Source of the DNA: a virus
DNA length: 45,593 nucleotides
Reading direction: 5' to 3' (one strand)
IMG/VR virus record: IMGVR_UViG_3300045988_022876
Below the pieces are notes generated by a model. That model was given only the letters and a program-made list of their open reading frames with translations. It made no database searches and was not told where the DNA came from. A program made the translations under genes and the position numbers. This document shows, in pieces, positions 1 to 45,321 of the stretch (position 1 is its first letter; each line of letters opens with the position of its first letter).

Positions 1-119
1 GCTATATTGATGCACAAAACAAATCATCCGGACACACTACATCTGACAGAGGATATTTTTAAGGTTAATTTGAAGAAATATGTAAAAGGACAGCATGTGG
101 CTCTTATGTGGGCGAGTCC
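1..119. repeat. Terminal direct repeat, copy 1 (assembly overlap of a circular or terminally redundant genome)
   Basis: 1-119 (gctatattgatgcacaaaac...tgtgggcgagtcc) is identical to 45475-45593. Confidence 0.95.
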
Positions 120-1260
120 AGATTGTACAAGCCATTCCAAAGCAAAGGGTGGCAAGCCGAGAGAAAAAGGACTTCGGATTCTTCCGTGGGCGGTATACAA
201 ACATGCAAAGGAGATTCTTCCAGATGTGGTGTTGATGGAAAATGTGGAGGAAATACAACAGTGGGGTCCGTTGGACGAAAAAGGTTATCCGATACCGGAG
301 AAAAAAGGCGAAGATTATAAAAAATTCATTACAGCAATGAAGAGTCTCGGGTACCGTTTCGGTAGTAGAGAATTGGTAGCTGCGGACTACGGAGCACCAA
401 CCACAAGAAAGAGATGGTATGCAGTATTCCGTAGAGATGGACGCGAAATCAGATTCCCAAAGCAGACTCACAGTGCAGGCGGCATCGGATTTGAGAAGTG
501 GAAACCTTGTGGAGATTACATTGACTGGTCAGATCTTGGCAGTTCGATATTTGACCGTAAGAAGCCACTTGCAGAAGCTACACAGAAGAGAATTGCGAAC
601 GGCATTAAGAAATATATTATCGATGCAGAATCTCCTTATATCGTGAGGAGTGGAGAAGCACTGGCATATATTATTCAATATCACGGAGAGACGAGAGCCG
701 GTGATTCAAGAGGACAGCTTTTGACAGAACCGATCAAGACGATTGATACATCGAATAGATACGGACTTGTGACAGCTTTCATCACGAAATATTACAAGAC
801 CGGCATAGGTCAAGGTTGTGACGAACCACTTCACACAATCACAACATCTCCAGGACACTTCGGATTGGTATCTGCATTCCTTATCAAATATTACGGTGCC
901 GGATGCGGTCAGCAACTTGATAAGCCACTGGGAACGATTACCACAAAGGACAGGTTCGGACTTGTAAATGTGATATTAGACATTGACGGAGAGCAATATA
1001 TCATATCAGACATTTTTCTTCGGATGCTGAAGCCGGAAGAATTAAAGCTGATGCAAGGATTCCCAAAGGATTACATTATCGATAGGGATTATAACTGGAA
1101 GAAATATCCGATTGCAAAGCAAGTTGCAAGAATTGGGAACAGTGTTGTGCCGATCATGGCAGAAAAGCTTGTAGAAGCAAACTGTCCGTATCTTAAGGTT
1201 GGCGAGAGAGTACCGAACTTGATTATAGACGATACACAAGAACAATTAAGATTTGCGTAG
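1..1260 (+). CDS. DNA (cytosine-5)-methyltransferase, 3' part; same frame as 45358.. across the junction
   Basis: Motifs WASPDCTSHS (catalytic Cys, motif IV-like), LMENVEE (ENV, motif VI), TTRKRWY (motif VIII), IGNSVVP (motif X). Codon phase is continuous with 45475-45593. Confidence 0.85.
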   Translation, partial: AILMHKTNHPDTLHLTEDIFKVNLKKYVKGQHVALMWASPDCTSHSKAKGGKPREKGLRILPWAVYKHAKEILPDVVLMENVEEIQQWGPLDEKGYPIPEKKGEDYKKFITAMKSLGYRFGSRELVAADYGAPTTRKRWYAVFRRDGREIRFPKQTHSAGGIGFEKWKPCGDYIDWSDLGSSIFDRKKPLAEATQKRIANGIKKYIIDAESPYIVRSGEALAYIIQYHGETRAGDSRGQLLTEPIKTIDTSNRYGLVTAFITKYYKTGIGQGCDEPLHTITTSPGHFGLVSAFLIKYYGAGCGQQLDKPLGTITTKDRFGLVNVILDIDGEQYIISDIFLRMLKPEELKLMQGFPKDYIIDRDYNWKKYPIAKQVARIGNSVVPIMAEKLVEANCPYLKVGERVPNLIIDDTQEQLRFA

Positions 1261-2588: not shown

Positions 2589-3332
2589 ATGGCAAAATTT
2601 AATATTGAGGTAGAACTTGATTGGGTAGACGAGGAAGCCGGATACACAATTGATGAAGAAATTAAAGAACAGGTTGTAAGTGGTGTTAAGGATGCGCTTC
2701 TTAGAAAAGCAACAGATGAAGCAGTACAGAGAGTAGATAAAGCAATAGCGGATAAAATTCTTGAAGCAGAAGAAACAATTCAAGATACTGTAGACAAATT
2801 TGTTAAGACTGTATCGGAAGAAAAGATTGCAGAGATTATGATTCCTGTAAAAGAAGATTCTTGGAGTAGCAAAGTAACATATATACCGTTGTCTGAATAT
2901 GTCGGAAAGAGATTTGAATTGTTTCTTACAGACAAGAGATACGACAAAGATGGGCACACTGCAAGTTTTTCTAGTGACAGAAAATTATCGGCGTCCGATC
3001 TCATTACGAGACAATATTTGGAAAAAGAACTTGGTACAAAAGTAGAAAATATGATTGCTACTGCAAAAAGAGAAGTGGAAGAAAGTCTTGTGAAGTCATT
3101 GGAACAGAAATTAAAAGAAAATCTTGCGAAAGAAACGATCGAGAGAATGAATATTCCTGATGTTTTGAAGAGGTTCAGTGAGATGGCACTGGAAATTATT
3201 AAAGACATTGAGGATGATAGGGAATTTAAAATGGAGATGTGCAAAAGAGCAATAAAGGCAAATGTATGCCCGGAGGATTGCGACATTTGCGCATGGGATA
3301 CGAAAGGTGGAGTTGGTTATGAGAATCATTAG
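2589..3332 (+). CDS. Hypothetical protein (coiled-coil, Cys-rich C-terminus)
   Basis: ATG at 2589 (MAKFNIEV..) within ORF 2544-3332, with AAGGAG upstream. Confidence 0.7.
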   Translation: MAKFNIEVELDWVDEEAGYTIDEEIKEQVVSGVKDALLRKATDEAVQRVDKAIADKILEAEETIQDTVDKFVKTVSEEKIAEIMIPVKEDSWSSKVTYIPLSEYVGKRFELFLTDKRYDKDGHTASFSSDRKLSASDLITRQYLEKELGTKVENMIATAKREVEESLVKSLEQKLKENLAKETIERMNIPDVLKRFSEMALEIIKDIEDDREFKMEMCKRAIKANVCPEDCDICAWDTKGGVGYENH

Positions 3333-3660
3333 TCAGAGCGGATTACTGGATGTGCCTTATGAATTGATTGCAATTTCCCCGTATTCAGGGAATATGGCAA
3401 CAATCGTTGGAACGTTTCCGGGGAATGAGCTCGGAAAAGGAGATAGAGTTTATATTTTAGCTGAATATTCCACCGAAGAAAAAGCGATCAAGGCTATGGA
3501 GATGTGCAGAGAACGGTATACACAATACATATTAAACAGGCACATGATTCAAGAAACGGCAAATGTTCTTACAAGAATACCGTTAGAAGAAGCGGAAAAA
3601 GTAAAAGATCAAATTACCGAAACTTTTATTTTTCAGTTTCCAAAAGAAGAGGAGGTGTAA
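3319..3660 (+). CDS. Hypothetical protein
   Basis: Internal ATG (MRIISQSG..) with GGTGGAG SD. Overlaps the previous stop by 14 nt. Confidence 0.65.
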   Translation: MRIISQSGLLDVPYELIAISPYSGNMATIVGTFPGNELGKGDRVYILAEYSTEEKAIKAMEMCRERYTQYILNRHMIQETANVLTRIPLEEAEKVKDQITETFIFQFPKEEEV

Positions 3661-5736: not shown

Positions 5737-5747
5737 TGATATAGAAT
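5719..5747 (+). promoter_or_regulatory. Candidate recombinase promoter TTGACG-17-TAGAAT
   Basis: -35 at 5719-5724, -10 at 5742-5747. The predicted start falls inside the 31-bp palindrome. Confidence 0.5.
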
Positions 5748-5774
5748 TGACCTTGATAGAATCTCGGTCAATTC
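5744..5774. promoter_or_regulatory. 31-bp imperfect palindrome GAATTGACCttGATaGaATCtcGGTCAATTC (candidate recombinase binding or attP-like site)
   Basis: 12 of 15 symmetric pairs. Its right 22 nt are repeated in inverted orientation at 7198-7219. Confidence 0.6.
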
Positions 5775-5800
5775 TTTTTAAATGGAAAGGAAGAGTTGAC

Positions 5801-7147
5801 ATGAAGAAAATGAATGTAGGTTATCTTAGGGTATCGACCGAGAACCAGACGGAAAAATATGGACTGGATCTGCAAAAAAACAAGATCATAGAAAGGGCAG
5901 AAAAAGAGGGAGACAAGATAGACAAGTGGTATATAGATGGCGGTTATTCTGGCAGCACGCTCGACCGACCGGATATACAACGGTTATTAGAGGATTCTAA
6001 GAATGGATACATAGAAAAGGTATATATCTATAAACTCGACAGAGTGAGCCGTGATACCATTGATACGCTTGTGATTCTGTATCGTACATTACCGGAATAT
6101 AATGTTAAGATTGTATCCGCTACCGAAGAATTAAGTCTGGATACGCCAATGGATAAAATGAAAATCGGCATTGATGCGCTTATGGGACAGTATGAGCGAG
6201 AGATTATATCCATGCGAACAAAAGCCGGGATGCTTGAACGTGTTAAAAGTGGCTTGTGGATGGGTGGAGGGCGTGTCCCGTTCGGCTATTACTATGACAG
6301 AAATGACGGGATATTACACCCAAAAGAAGACGAAGCAGAAAAGGTTCGGACTATGTATCGGTTGTATAACGATGGATATTCGTGCCAGAAAATATCGGAT
6401 ATGTTAGGGATGAAAGGAGAAAGAATTGTTATCCAGGTATTAAAAAGAAAGTCGAATATAGGATACATAGAATACAAAGGAAACATTTACAAGGGGAAAC
6501 ATGAAGCAATCGTAGATGAAGAAACATTTTACAAAACACAGAGATTTATGGAAAAACGAGCGAATAATTCTTATATATGCAACAAATTTCTACTTTCTGG
6601 ATTGTGCTTTTGCGGAAAATGTGGCGCACGAATGCGATATAAAAAATGGGCGAATAGACATGTATTAGAGTGTTATTCTAGGGACGGGTACAAAGAATAC
6701 ATGGTAAAAAACCCAAATTGCGACAACAAAAGACCGGACGCAAAGGATGTGGAAAAAGAAGTGTCAGATTGCTTTAAACGATTTGCTGTGAATATAACAG
6801 GGAGACATGAAAAGCAACTTAGTAAAAAAGAGCTTATTGAAAAAGAAATGAAAAGCACGGTAGACAAGCTTAAAAAGCTCTATGAATTATATGCCACAAA
6901 TGAAAGTGAAACTCTATTGGAAGTGATCGGAAAGTCGGAAAAACGGGTAAAAGAACTTAGAAGAGAGCTAAACAAGGAAACGCGGGAAAAAATTCTGACC
7001 ACTCAGGAGAGAATCGAAAAAATAAAAAAGATTTCTGATGTATGGGATAAATTAGATGTAAAAGAACAAAACAAAGTTCTGAAAGAATGCATAGACAAGA
7101 TCGTGATTACTGACGGAAATATAGACATCTATTTTAATTTGCTGTAA
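5801..7147 (+). CDS. Large serine recombinase (integrase-type)
   Basis: MKKMNVGYLRVSTENQ (catalytic Ser motif), resolvase and recombinase domains, Cys-rich zinc ribbon (CFCGKCG...C), C-terminal coiled coil. SD GGAAAGGAAG. Confidence 0.9.
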   Translation: MKKMNVGYLRVSTENQTEKYGLDLQKNKIIERAEKEGDKIDKWYIDGGYSGSTLDRPDIQRLLEDSKNGYIEKVYIYKLDRVSRDTIDTLVILYRTLPEYNVKIVSATEELSLDTPMDKMKIGIDALMGQYEREIISMRTKAGMLERVKSGLWMGGGRVPFGYYYDRNDGILHPKEDEAEKVRTMYRLYNDGYSCQKISDMLGMKGERIVIQVLKRKSNIGYIEYKGNIYKGKHEAIVDEETFYKTQRFMEKRANNSYICNKFLLSGLCFCGKCGARMRYKKWANRHVLECYSRDGYKEYMVKNPNCDNKRPDAKDVEKEVSDCFKRFAVNITGRHEKQLSKKELIEKEMKSTVDKLKKLYELYATNESETLLEVIGKSEKRVKELRRELNKETREKILTTQERIEKIKKISDVWDKLDVKEQNKVLKECIDKIVITDGNIDIYFNLL

Positions 7148-35172: not shown

Positions 35173-35550
35173 TTATCCGGCGAAAACACTTTTTAAGTAT
35201 TCTTTCAAGACCTTTCTTTGGTCTGGCGAAAGTTCAAGGTATTTCGCAATGATATTTTTGTCAACCTCATCAAGATTGAACTCTTCGGCAATTTCATCAA
35301 CAACGCTTGTAGGTGTGTTGCTAAACATATCGCCGTTTCCGTTGGCAAGCCATTCGTAATTTGCATTATAGGTTCTGCATATAGCATTTAACACTGTATT
35401 CGATGGATTACGTCTGCCTAATTCGTAATTTGCAATCGTGTTTCTGGCAGAACCAATACGTTTGCCAAATTCCTCTTGGCTAAGCCCTAATGACTCACGT
35501 AGCGATTTGATTCTTTCTTTCGTTTTGATCACCTCCTGTTCAATTATCAT
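35173..35550 (-). CDS. XRE-family repressor A
   Basis: HTH LRESLGLSQEEFGKRIGSARNTIANYELGRRNPS. Start is uncertain: ATG 35550 overlaps a -10 box, and the 88-aa upstream extension was rejected. Confidence 0.75.
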   Translation of the reverse strand: MIIEQEVIKTKERIKSLRESLGLSQEEFGKRIGSARNTIANYELGRRNPSNTVLNAICRTYNANYEWLANGNGDMFSNTPTSVVDEIAEEFNLDEVDKNIIAKYLELSPDQRKVLKEYLKSVFAG

Positions 35551-35576
35551 TATACCATGATTGTGTTCGGTGTCAA
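35549..35576 (-). promoter_or_regulatory. Leftward promoter TTGACA-16-TATAAT
   Basis: Minus strand: -35 at 35571-35576, -10 at 35549-35554. Confidence 0.5.
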
Positions 35577-35596
35577 CAATTAAATGACATAAAGTG

Positions 35597-35626
35597 TTGA
35601 CAATTATACACAATGCAGTATATAAT
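35597..35626 (+). promoter_or_regulatory. Rightward promoter TTGACA-18-TATAAT
   Basis: -35 at 35597-35602, -10 at 35621-35626. The two -35 boxes form the inverted repeat TGTCAACA / TGTTGACA. Confidence 0.6.
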
Positions 35627-35663
35627 GTTCTCAAAGAACACAAAGCAAGAGAGAGGTGAGAAC

Positions 35664-35801
35664 ATGACGGACACATTAGAAGAGAAGAAAGACGATGCAA
35701 AAGAGTTGGTTGACATCTTGGCAAGAATCCCGGAAGAAAGAAAACGTGAAGCAATCGGGATAATAAAAGGATTTGCGCTTTGCGCAGAAAAAGAACAATA
35801 G
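35664..35801 (+). CDS. Small hypothetical protein (45 aa)
   Basis: ATG follows AGAGGTGAG. First gene of the rightward operon. Confidence 0.5.
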   Translation: MTDTLEEKKDDAKELVDILARIPEERKREAIGIIKGFALCAEKEQ

Positions 35802-35812
35802 GAGGATACCAC

Positions 35813-36547
35813 ATGAATGAGATTTTAACAATTAACTATGAATCGGAGAATCCGACAGTATCAGCTAGGGAGTTACATGAAGCTCTCGGTGTTGCATCGA
35901 GATTCAGCCGATGGTTTGATTCAAACAAGGACTTGTTTATCGAGGGCGAAGATTATAACAAGTGTACATCGAGTACGGTTGTAAATAACGGTGCCATAAG
36001 AGAGCTTGAAGATTATTCTATGTCCGTGTTGATGGCAAAACACATTTGCTTAATGAGCCGGACTGAAAAAGGAAAAAGATGCAGAGATTATCTTATTGAC
36101 TTGGAGAAAGCATGGAACACGCCGGAACAGATCTTTGCAAGGGCGTTGAAAATGGCAGACAAGACCATAGAATCACTTAAAAAGGATAATGCTGTTCTGA
36201 TCGAGGATAATGAGCGCATGAAGCCGAAAGAAATCTTTGCAGACGCAGTATCAGCAAGCAACACGTCTATCCTTATTGGAGATCTGGCGAAGATTCTAAA
36301 ACAGAACGGTGTGAACACGGGGCAGAAACGTCTTTTTGAATGGCTCAGAGATAACGGGTACTTGATTAAGAGTGGCAACAGTAGGAATATGCCTACACAG
36401 AGGTCAATGGAGTTGAAGTTGTTTGAAGTAAAGGAAACAACGGTTGCGAATCCAGACGGAAGTGTCAGGGTAACAAAGACAACAAAAGTGACTGGAAAAG
36501 GACAGATGTACTTTATAAATAAATTAGTTCCGCACGAAGCAGCGTAA
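35813..36547 (+). CDS. Antirepressor (AntA/ORF6N-like N-terminus + KilAC C-terminus)
   Basis: VSARELHEALGV.SRFSRWF, and LIGDLAKILKQNGVNTGQKRLFEWLRDNGYL. Confidence 0.8.
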   Translation: MNEILTINYESENPTVSARELHEALGVASRFSRWFDSNKDLFIEGEDYNKCTSSTVVNNGAIRELEDYSMSVLMAKHICLMSRTEKGKRCRDYLIDLEKAWNTPEQIFARALKMADKTIESLKKDNAVLIEDNERMKPKEIFADAVSASNTSILIGDLAKILKQNGVNTGQKRLFEWLRDNGYLIKSGNSRNMPTQRSMELKLFEVKETTVANPDGSVRVTKTTKVTGKGQMYFINKLVPHEAA

Positions 36548-36651
36548 ATGTCGATAAAAAAAGCATTTTCCGTACTTTTTTAGCCTTTTTTCGCATATAA
36601 ATAATAATATGATAGAAAGAGAGGAAAAATAAGGAGGGAAGATTGCACTAA

Positions 36652-36680
36652 TTGACAAAATAGAACATATGTTCTATAAT
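36652..36680 (+). promoter_or_regulatory. Consensus promoter TTGACA-17-TATAAT
   Basis: -35 at 36652-36657, -10 at 36675-36680. Confidence 0.7.
36661..36676. promoter_or_regulatory. LexA (Cheo/SOS) box TAGAACATATGTTCTA
   Basis: Perfect 16-bp palindrome containing GAAC-N4-GTTC. Fills the promoter spacer. Confidence 0.7.
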
Positions 36681-36724
36681 TTTTATATCGCTACTGTATC
36701 GTGTGGGTTCCGGGAGGTATTGCT

Positions 36725-36841
36725 ATGGAAGAAGAAAAGAAAAAAGAAGAACTGATAAAGATGATTGAAAGCATAGAAAATGCAGATACAATCAAGTATC
36801 TGCATACATTCATAAAAACTTTTTTGGAAGAGTGGGGTTAA
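36725..36841 (+). CDS. Small acidic helical protein (38 aa) under the LexA-box promoter
   Basis: ATG sits 9 nt after GGGAGG. MEEEKKKEELIKMIESIENADTIKYLHTFIKTFLEEWG. Overlaps the convergent repressor stop by 4 nt. Confidence 0.45.
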   Translation: MEEEKKKEELIKMIESIENADTIKYLHTFIKTFLEEWG

Positions 36842-37191
36842 TCCTCACTCTTTCTTTTTAGCATCGAATCAACCATATCAATAATGATCTTACGATCTCT
36901 TTCGTTTAGCAAGCTAATCTTTTTCAGAAGTTTTACATCCTGTTCTGCAAGATTTTCAGATGGTGAGTTTAACTTTTCCATCGGAACATCAAATCCCATA
37001 AGCCACATTGGTTCAACATTTAATATTTTTCCCATTTTTCCGCTGCTTATGTTTGACGGTGCGTGCATCCCACTTAGATACTGGCTGATAGAAGCTTTTG
37101 CGACTCCGCTTTTGTCAGCTAATTCTTGTGGCTTCATATTATTAGTATCTAAAGCTCTTCTTAGCCGTTTGGCGGTGAGTTCATTCTTCAT
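36838..37191 (-). CDS. XRE-family repressor B (CI-like, no peptidase domain)
   Basis: HTH MKPQELADKSGVAKASISQYLSG. The second ATG (37191) is 7 nt from AGGAGG, while the first (37197) is only 1 nt away. Confidence 0.8.
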   Translation of the reverse strand: MKNELTAKRLRRALDTNNMKPQELADKSGVAKASISQYLSGMHAPSNISSGKMGKILNVEPMWLMGFDVPMEKLNSPSENLAEQDVKLLKKISLLNERDRKIIIDMVDSMLKRKSED

Positions 37192-37227
37192 TTGCATACC
37201 TCCTTTCGATTATATAGTAGCATAACG

Positions 37228-37257
37228 AAGTTAAACTTTCAAGTCGAAAAGTTTAAT
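37228..37257. promoter_or_regulatory. Operator palindrome AGTTAAACTTT-N7-AAAGTTTAATT
   Basis: 10/11 inverted repeat. Same motif as at 37284-37304 and 37543-37565. Confidence 0.6.
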
Positions 37258-37273
37258 TATTTTAAACTAAAGG

Positions 37274-37302
37274 GTTGACAAAATAGTTAAACGGTGTTAA
37301 AC
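37274..37302 (+). promoter_or_regulatory. Promoter TTGACA-17-TAAACT overlapped by GTTAAAC operator half-sites
   Basis: -35 at 37274-37279, -10 at 37297-37302. AGTTAAAC at 37284 and GTTAAACTTT at 37295. Confidence 0.55.
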
Positions 37303-37335
37303 TTTAGTCAGAAGCAAACGAAAGGAGGAATTTAA

Positions 37336-37542
37336 ATGCCTTACACTTATAACAAGCTTAGAGGTAGAATCGTTGAGAAGTACGGATCACAGTCCGCTTT
37401 TGCTGATAAACTCGGAAGAAGTCAGGTGAGCGTATCGAGGAAATTGCAGTGCAAGACTGAGTTCTCACAGGAAGATATGAATGTGTGGGCTGGATTGCTT
37501 GACATTGATCTGAGCGAATACGGTGCATATTTTTTTACCTAA
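37336..37542 (+). CDS. Cro-like HTH regulator (DUF739-like)
   Basis: AAGGAGG SD. SQSAFADKLGRSQVSVSRKL. Confidence 0.75.
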   Translation: MPYTYNKLRGRIVEKYGSQSAFADKLGRSQVSVSRKLQCKTEFSQEDMNVWAGLLDIDLSEYGAYFFT

Positions 37543-44176: not shown

Positions 44177-45321
44177 ATGGATTTAGAACAAAAAGCAATA
44201 AAAAGGATTCAGGCTGCATCAGAAATGAGCTTATACCACTACGGTAAGCCACTTGTATGTACTTATTCCGGCGGGAAAGACTCGGATGCGATGCTTGAAT
44301 TATTCAGAAGGGGGGCATACCGTTTGAAGTTCACAACAGCCATACGACAGCGGATGCCCCACAGACAATAAGACACATTAGAGATGTGTTTAAAAAACTG
44401 GAAATGGATGGCATTAAATGCACGATTGAGATGCCGGCATATAAGGGAGAAAGAACGAGTATGTGGAAATTGATTCCACAGAAGCTAATGCCACCAACAC
44501 GAATAGTACGATTTTGTTGTGCGGTTCTGAAGGAAACAGGTTGTGCGAATAGATTTATCGCTACTGGTGTGAGATGGGATGAAAGTAGACAAAGGAAAGA
44601 TAGAGAAGAATTTGAAAAATTAGGAGCTACGAAAGCCACAAAAGAAAAATTCACATCGGTAATGCTAATGAATGATAACGATTCACGCCGGAGAATGAAT
44701 GAACACTGTATGCAGAAAAAGAAAATGGTTGTCAATCCAATTATTGACTGGAAAGATTCGGATGTGTGGGAATATATAAATTCGGAAAACATTTCGACTT
44801 GCGAACTGTATCAGTGCGGATATGATCGTGTTGGTTGCATTGGTTGTCCGATGGCTGGAAAGAAAAGATACAAAGAATTTGCTGATTTCCCAAAATATAA
44901 AAATTTGTATATCCATGCATTTGACCGGATGGTTAAAGAAAGAAAATCAAGAGGTTTACCGTGCCGATGGAAAAACGGTAACGATGTTTTTTATGGTGGA
45001 TGGATGATGAAAATATTGAGGGACAAATGGATATATTTGATTTCATCGGAGGTAATACGCATGACTAAAGAAGAATTTATAAGAACTGTACAGATATGCG
45101 GATACGGCACGAAAAACGGAGCAAAGAAGTATGTAGAACTGAATCCGAAAGAGCAATACGGAACAGAAGATTTGATTGCCTTGCATGAAGGGAATATGCA
45201 CTGGCAAGGAATCAGCGGAGACAAAGGACTTGGATATGCTTATGGAGTGAATGGCAAGACCACAGCTTACAGCAATGGGATTTTCGGAAATTCTGGAAGT
45301 AGGCAAGATTGGGGGATGTGA
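44177..45321 (+). pseudogene. PAPS-reductase-family PP-loop protein, split by a frameshift at a G6 run
   Basis: VCTYSGGKDSDAM in the frame of 44177. The family-typical continuation GIPFEVHNSHTTADAPQT... lies in the -1 frame, open from 44299. G6 is at 44310-44315. Confidence 0.75.

What the first reader, a model, noticed from the sequence alone, without database searches (positions are those of the whole stretch)
36652..36841. Perfect LexA (Cheo) box inside a consensus promoter that fires into the 3' end of repressor B
TTGACA-17-TATAAT (36652-36680) has its whole spacer occupied by the 16-bp palindrome TAGAACATATGTTCTA, which contains the Gram-positive SOS box GAAC-N4-GTTC. The transcript encodes a 38-aa acidic helical protein with a good GGGAGG SD. 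Its stop overlaps the stop of the convergent repressor B gene by 4 nt, and I see no terminator in between. SOS derepression would therefore give a possible small antirepressor, comparable to the LexA-controlled Tum of coliphage 186. It would also give antisense or colliding transcription into the repressor B gene. This is a compact and, as far as I know, uncharacterised induction circuit for this phage type.
Basis: partly seen in the sequence, partly recalled or inferred. Interest (0 to 1): 0.65.

Follow-up and report, generated by a model that had tools for sequence, protein, structure and literature searches.

The report
SOS-controlled mini antirepressor beside phage repressor
A gut-bacterium (Lachnospiraceae) phage carries a promoter that looks built to be shut off by the host DNA-damage repressor LexA; it drives a conserved 38-residue two-helix protein placed tail-to-tail with a repressor that cannot cleave itself, so the protein is most likely a damage-triggered antirepressor, a design recently proven in Bacillus phages but not described for this phage group.

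Summary
The sequence observation is correct: TTGACA-17-TATAAT (36652-36680) has its spacer filled by TAGAACATATGTTCTA. A GGGAGG SD and a 38-aa ORF (36725-36841) follow, and the ORF's stop overlaps the stop of the convergent repressor gene by 4 nt. One claim is wrong. A strong, conserved intrinsic terminator (36826-36854 plus T-run) sits on the stop codons, and the repressor gene's own terminator (36805-36780, minus strand) lies inside the small ORF. In 94 related loci the box keeps its GAAC/GTTC arms while its central 4 bases vary, and it is fused to TATAAT (15-20 of 33 variants against about 0.3 expected). The small ORF is under purifying selection (pN/pS 0.36). It abuts a convergent XRE repressor in 92 of 94 informative cases. 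Repressor B is a short TP901-1-type CI (HTH, linker, two-helix hook, no peptidase), and its "Cro" is a MOR homologue. The best reading is a LexA-controlled small antirepressor. The antisense idea is largely refuted. The closest known system is AimX-AimC-AimL of Bacillus phage phi106 (2025 preprint), but there is no arbitrium system here and the host class is different. This is a new member of a known kind. No binding, induction or interaction has been tested.

The parts
36652..36657 (+). -35 hexamer TTGACA of the small-ORF promoter
   Evidence: TTGAC(A/T) is found at the same distance from the box in most of the 44 distinct related box promoters.
36661..36676 (.). SOS (Cheo-type LexA) box: palindrome TAGAACATATGTTCTA, core GAACATATGTTC at 36663-36674, filling the -35/-10 spacer and overlapping the -10 by 2 nt
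   Evidence: The arms are conserved and the central N4 varies across 44 distinct promoters. A box is present in 15-20 of 33 variants against about 0.3 expected. Both forms seen in the family (GTTC and GTTT arm) are the operator motifs used for, and found upstream of SOS genes in, Clostridioides difficile (PMC4234289).
36675..36680 (+). -10 hexamer TATAAT, fused directly to the 3' arm of the box (GTTCTATAAT)
   Evidence: TATAAT lies immediately 3' of the box in 33 of 40 distinct box promoters.
36687..36694 (+). Conserved ATCGCTAC motif at or near the predicted transcription start; function unknown
   Evidence: 57 of 95 loci. No consensus RNA structure in the leader. The 8-mer occurs 8 times in the window against 0.78 expected.
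36712..36717 (+). Shine-Dalgarno GGGAGG, 7 nt before the ATG
   Evidence: G-rich SD-like runs precede the start codon in the related loci.
36725..36841 (+). 38-aa ORF (stop included): predicted two-helix hairpin protein, the proposed SOS-induced antirepressor
   Evidence: Conserved in the viral and genome loci. 90 representative clusters in the profile search. pN/pS 0.36. AF2 model: helices 2-16 and 20-37, mean pLDDT 82. No Pfam, PHROG, NCBIfam or PADLOC family.
36780..36805 (-). Hairpin inside the small ORF (codons NADTIKYLH), followed by a U-rich run on the minus strand: probable intrinsic terminator of the repressor B mRNA
   Evidence: 5 of 10 pairs show compensatory changes. Pairing is 96% on the minus strand against 88% on the plus strand. 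U-rich tail 6.8 of 10 on the minus strand against 3.6 of 10 on the plus strand.
36826..36863 (+). Intrinsic terminator of the small-ORF transcript: stem-loop 36826-36854 straddling both stop codons, then a T-run
   Evidence: -18.6 kcal/mol, z = -4.0. A hairpin is present in nearly all of 39 distinct relatives, built from different sequences. Pairing is 92% on the plus strand against 75% on the minus strand. T-run 7.8 of 12 on the plus strand against 2.3 of 12 on the minus strand.
36838..37197 (-). Repressor B: 119-aa short TP901-1-type CI (HTH 2-66, linker, two-helix hook 81-118); no peptidase domain
   Evidence: Pfam finds HTH_3 only. Sequence hits to the TP901-1 CI N-terminal domain, 6tri and 5a7l. 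AF2 mean pLDDT 89.5. Foldseek full-length hits to RghR, AimC (9iaq) and SinR/SinI (1b0n). tblastn to TP901-1 cI over residues 8-118.
37224..37305 (.). Probable operators of the repressor B / MOR switch: direct and inverted repeats of (A)GTTAAAC(TTT), unrelated to the SOS box
   Evidence: Promoter-like sites on both strands in this region (+ 37275-37303; - 37242-37214).
37336..37542 (+). DUF739 protein, homologue of MOR (the modulator of repression/antirepressor of TP901-1), in the 'Cro' position
   Evidence: Pfam DUF739, E = 1.3e-14. PDB MOR 6to6/6tri, E = 5e-6 over residues 1-67. TP901-1 mor is itself annotated as a DUF739 family protein.

Best explanation
The element is a DNA-damage input module for a TP901-1-type (CI/MOR) lysis-lysogeny switch in a temperate Lachnospiraceae phage.

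In the lysogen, host LexA binds the Cheo-type box that fills the spacer of an otherwise consensus sigma-A promoter and keeps it silent (inferred). After DNA damage, RecA-stimulated LexA self-cleavage frees the promoter. A short mRNA of about 175 nt is made and ends at the conserved terminator on the stop codons (the terminator is shown by sequence and covariation; the transcript is inferred). The mRNA is translated into a 38-residue two-helix hairpin protein (coding status is shown by conservation and pN/pS).

The protein acts as an antirepressor of the adjacent repressor B. Repressor B has no peptidase domain and so cannot respond to RecA directly. The most likely target is its C-terminal two-helix dimerisation hook, in the manner of SinI/SinR and AimX/AimC: dimer or oligomer formation is blocked and operator binding is lost (inferred from synteny, co-variation and precedent). 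Derepression of the lytic promoter then produces the MOR homologue, which is known in TP901-1 to bind the CI N-terminal domain and lock the lytic state (by homology).
For: 1. Anatomy is confirmed.

2. Box footprint. In 94 loci oriented on the small ORF there are 44 distinct promoters (window included) of the form TTGAC(A/T)-N6-7-GAAC-N4-GTTC-TATAAT. The arms are invariant and the N4 varies (ATAT, GTAT, ACAC, ACGC, TTAT, AAAT, AAAC and others). A box falls in the 80-nt upstream zone in 15 of 33 variants (strict) and 20 of 33 (relaxed), against 0.25 and 0.34 expected.

3. The variant AAAC-N4-GTTC is the reverse complement of GAAC-N4-GTTT. That is the form listed upstream of C. difficile lexA, recA and ruvC, while GAAC-N4-GTTC is listed upstream of uvrB (PMC4234289).

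4. The box is kept with three or more different repressor DNA-binding domain types. The window's own operators are GTTAAAC repeats. A host factor therefore fits better than the phage repressor.

5. The small ORF is a real gene. pN/pS is 0.36 overall and 0.21 in the C-terminal 9 codons. It has an SD. The profile search finds 90 representative clusters, nearly all 35-90 aa.

6. There is a convergent XRE repressor, with its stop within -3 to +10 nt of the small ORF's stop, in 92 of 94 informative cases.

7. The small protein's C-terminal half tracks the repressor's C-terminal domain, not its HTH. Two HTH types share one C-terminal domain and one small-protein type. L041-48 and L021 have different C-terminal domains and different small-protein C-halves.

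8. Repressor B is HTH + linker + two-helix hook, with no S24 domain. Its best full-length structural matches include SinR in complex with SinI and AimC. The small protein is a hairpin of almost the same dimensions.

9. Precedent. phi106 AimX is a 29-aa ORF just downstream of a LexA site and overlapping aimC. It was shown to be a protein antirepressor that blocks AimC oligomerisation. SPbeta and phi3T Sar are LexA-controlled antirepressors.

10. For TP901-1 CI, induction is reported as 'RecA dependent through unknown mechanisms' (PMC11149083).
Against: Nothing has been tested physically: no LexA binding, no damage-inducibility, no protein-protein interaction.

The LexA specificity of Lachnospiraceae was not examined here. 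It is extrapolated from Bacillus and Clostridium/Clostridioides.

The box is absent or degenerate in about 40% of the small-protein variants, so SOS control is not universal in the family.

The small protein has no detectable sequence homology to the repressor's C-terminal domain (hhalign probability 1%), nor to SinI, gp7 or any other solved protein. The SinI-like mimicry rests on topology alone.

The co-variation of the small protein's C-half with the repressor's C-terminal domain could be simple physical linkage. The two 3' ends abut, and the repressor's terminator lies inside the small ORF.

The window also carries a classical Ant antirepressor under a second repressor, so another induction route exists.
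Confidence: 0.6

Rival explanations
1. RNA-level mechanism. The SOS-induced transcript acts mainly as an antisense or colliding transcript against the repressor B gene, and the peptide is secondary.
For: The convergent, stop-overlapping arrangement is conserved in 92 of 94 informative cases. The repressor gene's terminator lies inside the small ORF, so the two mRNAs share roughly 90 nt of complementary 3' end in the main group. That could allow mutual RNase III-type degradation.
Against: A strong terminator with plus-strand-specific pairing and a T-run ends the small transcript about 20 nt into the repressor gene, and it is conserved through compensatory changes. The ORF is under purifying selection at the protein level and has an SD. 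The L041-48 group uses one bidirectional terminator with only a short overlap, yet keeps the box and the ORF. In the analogous phi106 system, an aimX start-to-stop mutant that expressed the whole antisense RNA was inactive, and the authors reject the antisense model.
Confidence: 0.1
2. The promoter is LexA-controlled and the peptide is real, but its target is not repressor B. It might instead modulate LexA or RecA (as GIL01 gp7 does), act on MOR or the CI:MOR complex, or act on a host function during the SOS response.
For: No interaction evidence exists. The N-terminal helix (..KEEIIKMI..) is conserved across groups with different repressors, which could point to a common, non-repressor partner. 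Some relatives carry two paralogues in tandem.
Against: Synteny with the 3' end of a repressor gene is near-absolute, whereas the upstream neighbours vary freely. The C-terminal half changes together with the repressor's C-terminal domain. There is no similarity to gp7 or any solved protein. gp7-type co-repressors serve phages that lack their own repressor, which is not the case here.
Confidence: 0.2
3. The palindrome is an operator for a phage regulator (CI or MOR), not for LexA, so the promoter belongs to the phage's own immunity circuit.
For: In type-A2 relatives and in TP901-1 itself, the cI-mor intergenic region holds TTGAAC-AAAA-GTTCAA, which also matches GAAC-N4-GTTC. TP901-1-type CI half-sites contain GTTCA.
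Against: Those intergenic sites are the OM1/OM2 (TGAACAAAA) sites of TP901-1 (PMC7250872). They form a distinct class with an A-rich spacer and TT/AA flanks. The promoter boxes mostly have RNRY-type spacers, variable flanks and a fused TATAAT. The promoter box is kept with three or more unrelated repressor DNA-binding domains. The window's own operators are GTTAAAC repeats.
Confidence: 0.07

Closest known systems
AimX-AimC-AimL 'extended arbitrium' module of Bacillus phages such as phi106 (Kabel et al., bioRxiv 10.1101/2025.11.23.689978; AimC structure PDB 9iaq)
   Same: A tiny ORF (29-80 aa) lies just downstream of a LexA site, runs towards the repressor gene and sometimes overlaps it. The repressor is a short (80-140 aa) HTH protein without an autocleavage domain and does not respond to mitomycin C on its own. 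A cro-like gene lies divergent from it. The small protein binds the repressor's C-terminal oligomerisation domain (SinI/SinR-like). An earlier antisense-RNA model was rejected. AimC is among the top structural matches of repressor B and is a weak sequence hit.
   Different: No AimR/AimP signalling genes are upstream, either in the window or in 14 representative relatives, so control would be by LexA alone. The host is Lachnospiraceae (class Clostridia), not Bacillus. The repressor's DNA-binding domain is of TP901-1 CI type and the 'cro' is a MOR homologue. The small protein is a two-helix hairpin family with no named relatives. The Bacillus authors found very few AimC/AimL homologues outside arbitrium systems.
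TP901-1 CI/MOR genetic switch (Lactococcus phage TP901-1; also S. aureus phi13)
   Same: Repressor B's N-terminal domain is homologous to the CI N-terminal domain. Type-A2 relatives are 58% identical to it. The partner is DUF739/MOR. CI lacks a peptidase domain and dimerises through a two-helix hook (PMC4941734, PMC11149083). Type-A2 loci even keep the OM-like site TTGAACAAAAGTTCAA.
   Different: TP901-1 CI is 180 aa and has an extra hexamerisation region. A co-directional gene annotated 'metallo-protease' follows cI, not a convergent small ORF. The SOS trigger of TP901-1 is reported as unknown. Here a LexA-box promoter and a small ORF occupy the position downstream of cI.
SinR/SinI of Bacillus subtilis (PDB 1b0n)
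   Same: An HTH repressor with a C-terminal helical hook, antagonised by a small helical protein that forms a heterodimer through that hook. SinR is a top full-length structural match of repressor B. The small protein has the same helix-turn-helix-hairpin dimensions as the repressor's hook.
   Different: SinI is a recognisable homologue of the SinR hook. Here there is no detectable homology between the small protein and the repressor. SinI is not LexA-controlled and is chromosomal.
LexA-controlled antirepressors: coliphage 186 Tum, Gifsy-phage antirepressors (PMC3121763), SPbeta/phi3T Sar (bioRxiv 10.1101/2025.11.27.690993)
   Same: The logic is the same: a non-cleavable phage repressor is inactivated by a small protein whose gene is directly repressed by host LexA.
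   Different: The proteins, repressor folds (SroF is integrase-like) and gene arrangements are unrelated. No library search returned any of these families for the small protein.
GIL01 gp7 (small LexA co-repressor, PMC4551915)
   Same: A small phage protein tied to LexA-dependent control in a Gram-positive phage.
   Different: gp7 strengthens LexA binding in a phage reported to lack a typical repressor of its own (my own knowledge of GIL01). There is no sequence similarity here, and this module sits next to a dedicated repressor.

Membership tests
Firmicute (Cheo-box) LexA-repressed promoter | Match to GAAC-N4-GTT(C/T) (B. subtilis consensus CGAACRNRYGTTYC) | tested here: met
   AGAACATATGTTCT at 36662-36675, with a perfect 12-nt core and an RNRY spacer.
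Firmicute (Cheo-box) LexA-repressed promoter | Operator overlaps core promoter elements, so that a bound repressor excludes RNA polymerase | tested here: met
   The box fills the 17-nt spacer and overlaps the -10 by 2 nt. The same geometry is found in 33 of 40 distinct related promoters.
Firmicute (Cheo-box) LexA-repressed promoter | Site conserved in orthologous promoters, with arms constrained and spacer free | tested here: met
   15-20 of 33 variants against about 0.3 expected.
Firmicute (Cheo-box) LexA-repressed promoter | The host's LexA recognises this motif (boxes upstream of host lexA, recA and uvr genes) | not tested
The motif is extrapolated from C. difficile, C. perfringens and C. 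acetobutylicum (PMC4234289).
Firmicute (Cheo-box) LexA-repressed promoter | LexA binding and DNA-damage inducibility | not testable with these tools
   Needs EMSA or SPR, and a reporter or RNA-seq with mitomycin C.
AimX-AimC-AimL extended arbitrium module | Small ORF downstream of a LexA site, directed towards and overlapping the repressor gene | tested here: met
AimX-AimC-AimL extended arbitrium module | Short single-HTH repressor without an autocleavage domain, plus a divergent cro-like HTH gene | tested here: met
AimX-AimC-AimL extended arbitrium module | AimR receptor and AimP peptide genes immediately upstream, co-directional with the small ORF | tested here: not met
   In the window the upstream genes are Ant (AntA + KilAC), a 62-aa ORF and a second XRE repressor. 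In 14 representative relatives the upstream genes are structural genes or HTH proteins, judged from ORF listings and their translations without a domain scan. None is an AimR-sized gene followed by a small co-directional ORF.
AimX-AimC-AimL extended arbitrium module | Sequence homology of the repressor to AimC and of the small protein to AimX | tested here: inconclusive
   AimC (9iaq): sequence E = 0.0026 over the HTH only; Foldseek full-length E = 7.5e-4.
TP901-1-type CI/MOR switch | CI N-terminal domain homology and a divergent MOR (DUF739) gene | tested here: met
TP901-1-type CI/MOR switch | CI without a peptidase domain, with a helical-hook dimerisation region (CTD1) | tested here: met
   Pfam finds HTH_3 only. 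AF2 helices 81-95 and 99-118. The tblastn alignment to TP901-1 CI runs to residue 118.
TP901-1-type CI/MOR switch | C-terminal hexamerisation region (CTD2) and three operators OR/OL/OD with AGTTCAYG half-sites | tested here: not met
   Repressor B is only 119 aa, comparable to the dimeric CI-delta-58. The window's intergenic repeats are GTTAAAC-type.
SinR/SinI pair | The small antagonist is homologous to the repressor's C-terminal hook | tested here: not met
   hhalign probability 1%. SinI is not among the PDB profile hits. Only the topology is alike.
186 Tum / Gifsy / Sar antirepressor families | Sequence or family membership | tested here: not met
   No Pfam, PHROG or NCBIfam family for the small protein. 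No tblastn match in 50,697 deposited phage genomes.

The most novel reading that the evidence does not exclude
The 38-aa hairpin family is the missing SOS sensor of peptidase-less TP901-1-type CI/MOR switches in LexA-bearing Firmicutes. It would work as a two-tier antirepressor cascade. A LexA-controlled mini-protein first breaks the CI dimer at its helical hook, and MOR then locks the lytic state by binding the CI DNA-binding domain. The two genes' terminators are embedded in each other's coding sequence, which would add mutual 3'-end RNA antagonism and sharpen the threshold.
Probability: 0.3. Interest if true: 0.65.

Novelty: new member of a known kind. Interest (0 to 1): 0.5.

Why it matters
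Lachnospiraceae are among the dominant human-gut bacteria, and their prophages respond to DNA-damaging drugs and metabolites. How those prophages sense damage is essentially unstudied.

This module gives a concrete, testable trigger: one promoter, one 38-aa protein and one repressor. It belongs to a family that recurs in well over a hundred viral contigs.

It extends the newly described AimX/AimC design beyond Bacillus and beyond arbitrium signalling.

It also offers a candidate answer, at least for LexA-bearing hosts, to a question open since the 1990s: how TP901-1-type CI repressors that lack a protease domain are inactivated in a RecA-dependent way.

There is a practical point as well. The gene is unannotated or mis-called, with ORFs extended back to the ATG inside the SOS box, so current annotation pipelines miss it.

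Tried and rejected
1. SinI-like sequence mimicry. I thought the small protein resembled the repressor's C-terminal helices. Profile-profile comparison gives probability 1%, so only the shared hairpin topology remains.

2. The window's 62-aa ORF (35613-35801) as a paralogue of the small protein: rejected (probability 0.5%). The 71-84-aa ORF upstream in L029/L041 is a paralogue (82%, E = 1e-5).

3. Conserved RNA structure in the 5' leader around ATCGCTAC: RNAalifold finds none.

4. Known RNA families in 36300-37500: nothing near the gathering scores.

6. Fold search with the 38-aa model: no meaningful hit.

7. PDB profile search for the small family: only chance-level hits such as centrin; no SinI or gp7.

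8. Protein search of 50,697 deposited phage genomes for the small protein: no match.

The narrower one returned only 6 genome loci.

10. The palindrome as a phage CI/MOR operator: considered seriously after finding TTGAACAAAAGTTCAA in type-A2 loci and in TP901-1. Rejected, because these are OM-type sites of a different class.

Full report

Mostly yes. Reading 36300-37500 shows:
- TTGACA at 36652-36657, a 17-nt spacer, and TATAAT at 36675-36680
- the 16-bp palindrome TAGAACATATGTTCTA at 36661-36676 (core GAACATATGTTC, 36663-36674), which fills the spacer and overlaps the -10 by two bases
- GGGAGG at 36712-36717, 7 nt before the ATG at 36725
- a 38-codon ORF, MEEEKKKEELIKMIESIENADTIKYLHTFIKTFLEEWG, ending at 36841
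- a convergent 119-aa gene at 36838-37197 (minus strand), whose stop shares the tetranucleotide TTAA with the small ORF's stop

The promoter is one of three 12/12 consensus matches in the 5-kb neighbourhood. The box is the only GAAC-N4-GTTC in the window. Chance alone predicts 0.66 such sites, so the box is not significant by count. Its weight comes from its position and from comparative data (section 3).

A terminator does lie between the two genes (section 2).

**2. Two terminators face each other**

The scan finds a 12-bp stem at 36826-36854 followed by TTTCTTTTT on the + strand. It folds at -18.6 kcal/mol, with z = -4.0 against shuffles. Its 5' arm encodes the last residues (E-E-W-G) of the small protein. 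Its 3' arm and T-run lie in the last codons of the repressor gene.

A second hairpin (36805-36780 on the minus strand) is followed by UUUUCUAUGCUUUC. It lies inside the small ORF, in the codons for NADTIKYLH.

Both hairpins recur across 39 distinct related sequences, often built from different bases. On an alignment of 32 sequences, 8 of 18 pairs show double (compensatory) changes, against 1-4 in the slid controls.

The wobble pattern is strand-specific:

| Hairpin | Paired on + strand | Paired on - strand | U/T-rich tail |
|---|---|---|---|
| Over the stop codons | 92% | 75% | only on + (7.8 of 12, against 2.3 of 12) |
| Internal | 88% | 96% | only on - (6.8 of 10, against 3.6 of 10) |

The stop-codon hairpin is therefore the small ORF's terminator, and the internal hairpin is the repressor gene's terminator. 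The two mRNAs should overlap by only about 90 nt at their 3' ends. In the L041-L048 group a single hairpin (GGGGCATTTAATGCCCC) with U-runs on both strands serves both genes.

This removes the basis for unterminated transcription into the repressor gene.

**3. The box is a conserved regulatory site**

I collected relatives in four scans:
- a scan with repressor B (26 viral loci)
- a scan with the small protein (22 viral loci)
- a scan of the genome collection (6 loci)
- a wider viral scan (156 confirmed, the best 80 kept)

This gave 94 loci oriented on the small ORF, holding 33 distinct small-protein variants.

An exact GAAC-N4-GTTC, or the one-arm variant AAAC-N4-GTTC, lies 60-110 nt upstream of the start codon in 20 of the 33 variants. 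There are 44 distinct promoter sequences (window included), and they share one architecture: TTGAC(A/T), 6-7 nt, the box, then TATAAT directly abutting it. TATAAT follows the box in 33 of 40 distinct cases.

The arms are invariant, whereas the central four bases vary (ATAT, GTAT, ACAC, ACGC, TTAT, TGAT, CTAT, AAAT, AAAC, ACAT, ATAC). This is what one expects of a protein-binding palindrome whose spacer is not read.

Measured against the rate of the same pattern elsewhere in the same loci, the expected number of variants with a box in the 80-nt zone is 0.25 (strict) or 0.34 (relaxed). The observed numbers are 15 and 20.

Both forms correspond to clostridial LexA operator motifs. In C. difficile, GAAC-N4-GTTT is listed upstream of lexA, recA and ruvC, and GAAC-N4-GTTC upstream of uvrB (PMC4234289).

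The hosts are Lachnospiraceae. Five of the six genome loci are from that family, and the sixth is in a MAG binned as Bacteroidaceae. One source names a repressor B homologue as coming from a Lachnospiraceae bacterium. I could not retrieve host lexA or recA promoters, so the host's LexA specificity is inferred, not shown.

**4. Could the palindrome be a phage operator instead?**

I took this seriously. Relatives whose repressor has a TP901-1-like DNA-binding domain carry TTGAAC-[AGT]AA[AG]-GTTCAA in the repressor-mor intergenic region. TP901-1 has exactly TTGAACAAAAGTTCAA there.

The TP901-1 literature assigns that sequence to the OM1/OM2 sites (TGAACAAAA), which are putative MOR sites. The CI half-site is AGTTCACG (PMC7250872).

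These intergenic sites form a separate class. They have an A-rich spacer and fixed TT/AA flanks. The promoter boxes mostly have RNRY-type spacers, variable flanks and a fused -10.

Two further points count against the rival:
- The promoter box is retained with at least three unrelated repressor DNA-binding domains.
- The window's own operators are repeats of (A)GTTAAAC(TTT).

A host factor is the economical explanation.

**5. The small ORF is a gene, and a family**

- **Selection.** Over 30 distinct 31-codon segments, pN/pS is 0.36, and 0.21 in the last nine codons.
- **Extent.** A profile search of 1.84 billion representative proteins returns 90 clusters at E <= 1e-3. Almost all are 35-90 aa, with consensus ..Y+.EII.MI..I.NaGTLEYLHTFIKLFLEKWG.
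- **No annotation.** No Pfam, PHROG, NCBIfam or PADLOC family matches. None of 50,697 deposited phage genomes encodes it. No paper in the library contains its signature motif.
- **Structure.** AlphaFold2 predicts a hairpin of two helices, 2-16 and 20-37, with mean pLDDT 82.
- **Mis-calling.** Gene callers often extend the ORF upstream to the ATG inside the box. The resulting 'MFYN...' N-termini are the translated box plus -10.

**6. The partner**

In 92 of 94 informative cases, a convergent XRE-type repressor gene ends within -3 to +10 nt of the small ORF's stop. L044 is cut by its contig end, L050 and L054 lack the repressor, and L088 looks frameshifted. Upstream neighbours, by contrast, vary freely: Ant, HTH proteins that appear to have S24-like C-termini, or tail genes.

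Repressor B has only an HTH_3 domain. Its N-terminal domain is homologous to the CI repressor of lactococcal phage TP901-1 (6tri and 5a7l, E about 1e-6; tblastn over residues 8-118). The divergent 68-aa 'Cro' is DUF739 and a homologue of MOR (6to6, E = 5e-6).

AlphaFold2 (mean pLDDT 89.5) gives an HTH domain (2-66), a flexible linker and a two-helix hairpin (81-95, 99-118). This is the layout of the dimeric CI-delta-58, whose dimerisation region was modelled as a 'two-helical hook' (PMC4941734). The best full-length structural matches are RghR, AimC (9iaq) and SinR in complex with SinI.

Two different HTH types occur among the relatives. One of them is 58% identical to the TP901-1 CI N-terminal domain. 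Both types share the same C-terminal segment (..SLLxxRDKxxIxxMIDxMLSxK) and the same small-protein type.

Two groups differ:
- The L041-48 group has a different small-protein C-half and a different repressor C-terminus.
- The L021 group has a third pairing, again with a 4-nt stop overlap.

The small protein thus tracks the repressor's C-terminal domain rather than its DNA-binding domain. This fits a hook-directed antirepressor. It could also reflect plain linkage, since the two 3' ends abut.

**7. Mechanism proposed**

The steps are:
1. LexA occupies the spacer of a consensus promoter.
2. DNA damage removes LexA.
3. A short, terminated mRNA yields the 38-aa hairpin protein.
4. The hairpin protein binds the repressor's helical hook and prevents dimerisation and operator binding.
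5. The lytic promoter then fires and produces MOR. In TP901-1, MOR binds the CI N-terminal domain and stabilises the lytic state (PMC11149083).

Shown by sequence analysis: the promoter and box architecture and its conservation, the coding status of the ORF, the terminators, the synteny, and the domain make-up. Inferred: LexA binding, inducibility, and the protein-protein interaction and its site.

I put 0.6 on the whole chain. The LexA-controlled, translated small gene is more certain (about 0.85). The hook as the contact site is less certain.

**8. Comparison with what is known**

The principle is established. LexA-controlled antirepressors are known for non-cleavable repressors: 186 Tum, the Gifsy phages (PMC3121763) and SPbeta/phi3T Sar.

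The anatomy is nearly identical to the 'extended arbitrium' module of Bacillus phages:
- AimX of phi106 is a 29-aa ORF just downstream of a LexA site and overlapping aimC.
- AimC is a short SinR-like repressor that does not respond to mitomycin C on its own.
- AimL is cro-like.
- AimX binds AimC and blocks its oligomerisation.
- The earlier antisense model was tested with a start-to-stop mutant and rejected.

The differences here are:
- There is no AimR/AimP upstream.
- The host is in the class Clostridia.
- The DNA-binding domain is of TP901-1 CI type, with a MOR partner.
- The small-protein family is distinct and unannotated.

The Bacillus authors reported very few AimC/AimL homologues outside arbitrium systems. 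This is therefore an arbitrium-free counterpart, not a listed member.

The module works like SinI/SinR but fails the homology criterion for it.

TP901-1 itself has a co-directional gene annotated 'metallo-protease' downstream of cI, and no convergent small ORF.

**9. Novelty and score**

This is a new member of a known kind. The circuit logic, and even the gene geometry, are already published for Bacillus phages. The protein family, the host group and the coupling to a CI/MOR switch are new.

The link to TP901-1-type repressors is the most interesting angle. The literature states that their induction is 'RecA dependent through unknown mechanisms', and this module makes one answer directly testable in LexA-bearing hosts.

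Interest: 0.5.

Noticed in passing
window 23919, 24131, 24355, 36687, 44557 (+); 26334, 33064, 35499 (-): The 8-mer ATCGCTAC, conserved at the start of the small-ORF leader in 57 of 95 loci, occurs 8 times in the window against 0.78 expected (0 of 100 shuffles reach 8). Most copies lie in coding sequence with unrelated flanks. The copy at 44557 shares a longer match (ATCGCTACTGG..GTG..GGG) with the leaders. No RNA structure was found and the function is unknown.
   Followed up: partly
window 35173-36547: A second regulatory module. An XRE repressor (35173-35568, minus strand) lies divergent from a 62-aa ORF plus an Ant antirepressor (AntA + KilAC, 35813-36547). Two back-to-back 12/12 consensus promoters sit at 35549-35576 (-) and 35597-35626 (+). 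The scan found no terminator between ant and the SOS promoter, so read-through into the small ORF is possible.
   Followed up: partly
L029 2718-2933 and L041 2678-2932; L029 1859-2593 and L041 1858-2592: Some relatives carry a second, longer paralogue of the small protein (…YENEIKRMIKGIRDPRLMRYIYLVVKDAI…). Its stop lies in the -35 of the SOS promoter. It is divergent from a 244-aa HTH protein whose C-terminus looks like an S24 (LexA/CI-type) peptidase by eye; no domain scan was run. These phages may therefore have two repressor systems.
   Followed up: partly
L041-L048, about 3001-3120: A mosaic breakpoint in the middle of the small ORF. The promoter, box and first 16 or so codons are nearly identical to those of L004-L013. 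The C-terminal half, the terminator, the convergent repressor (121 aa) and the Cro-like gene are all replaced together.
   Followed up: yes
L049, L053, L056, L060, L063, L070, L072, L093, L094, L096, L102, L110 at about 3513-3549; L121 (TP901-1) 3232-3247: TTGAAC-NAAA-GTTCAA in the cI-mor intergenic region is shared between Lachnospiraceae phages and lactococcal phage TP901-1, where it corresponds to the OM1/OM2 sites. This is deep conservation of a switch element across host orders.
   Followed up: partly
L060 1495-1560: A complete second copy of the promoter cassette (TTGAC-N6-GAACATACGTTC-TATAAT-N5-ATCGCTA) lies 1.5 kb upstream of a small ORF whose own proximal promoter lacks a box. In some phages the SOS promoter may therefore drive a longer operon.
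   Followed up: no
L021 3381-3925 (also L023, L025, L026): A third repressor type (XRE, about 115-143 aa) lies convergent with a 38-aa member of the small family (MDYGKEIIKMIKQVKNKGELQYIYTILNTYLNRKSKAD), again with a 4-nt stop overlap. It sits directly upstream of a repB-like gene. No SOS box was seen in its promoter.
   Followed up: partly
window 36669-36755 and proteins P0003, P0006, P0009, P0012, P0014, P0024: Automatic gene calls often start at the ATG in the centre of the SOS box (CATATG). The resulting N-termini, '...MFYN...', are the translated box plus -10. The true small ORF is thereby mis-annotated or fused.
   Followed up: yes
window 7-1260, 5747-7147, 44386-45321: The window also encodes a C-5 cytosine DNA methylase, a large serine recombinase (the probable integrase) and a protein with a PAPS-reductase domain.
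   Followed up: no
L049 (CAVKBM010000179.1): One genome locus carrying the module is binned as 'Bacteroidaceae bacterium', while all the others are Lachnospiraceae. This is probably a mis-binned phage contig rather than a true host.
   Followed up: no
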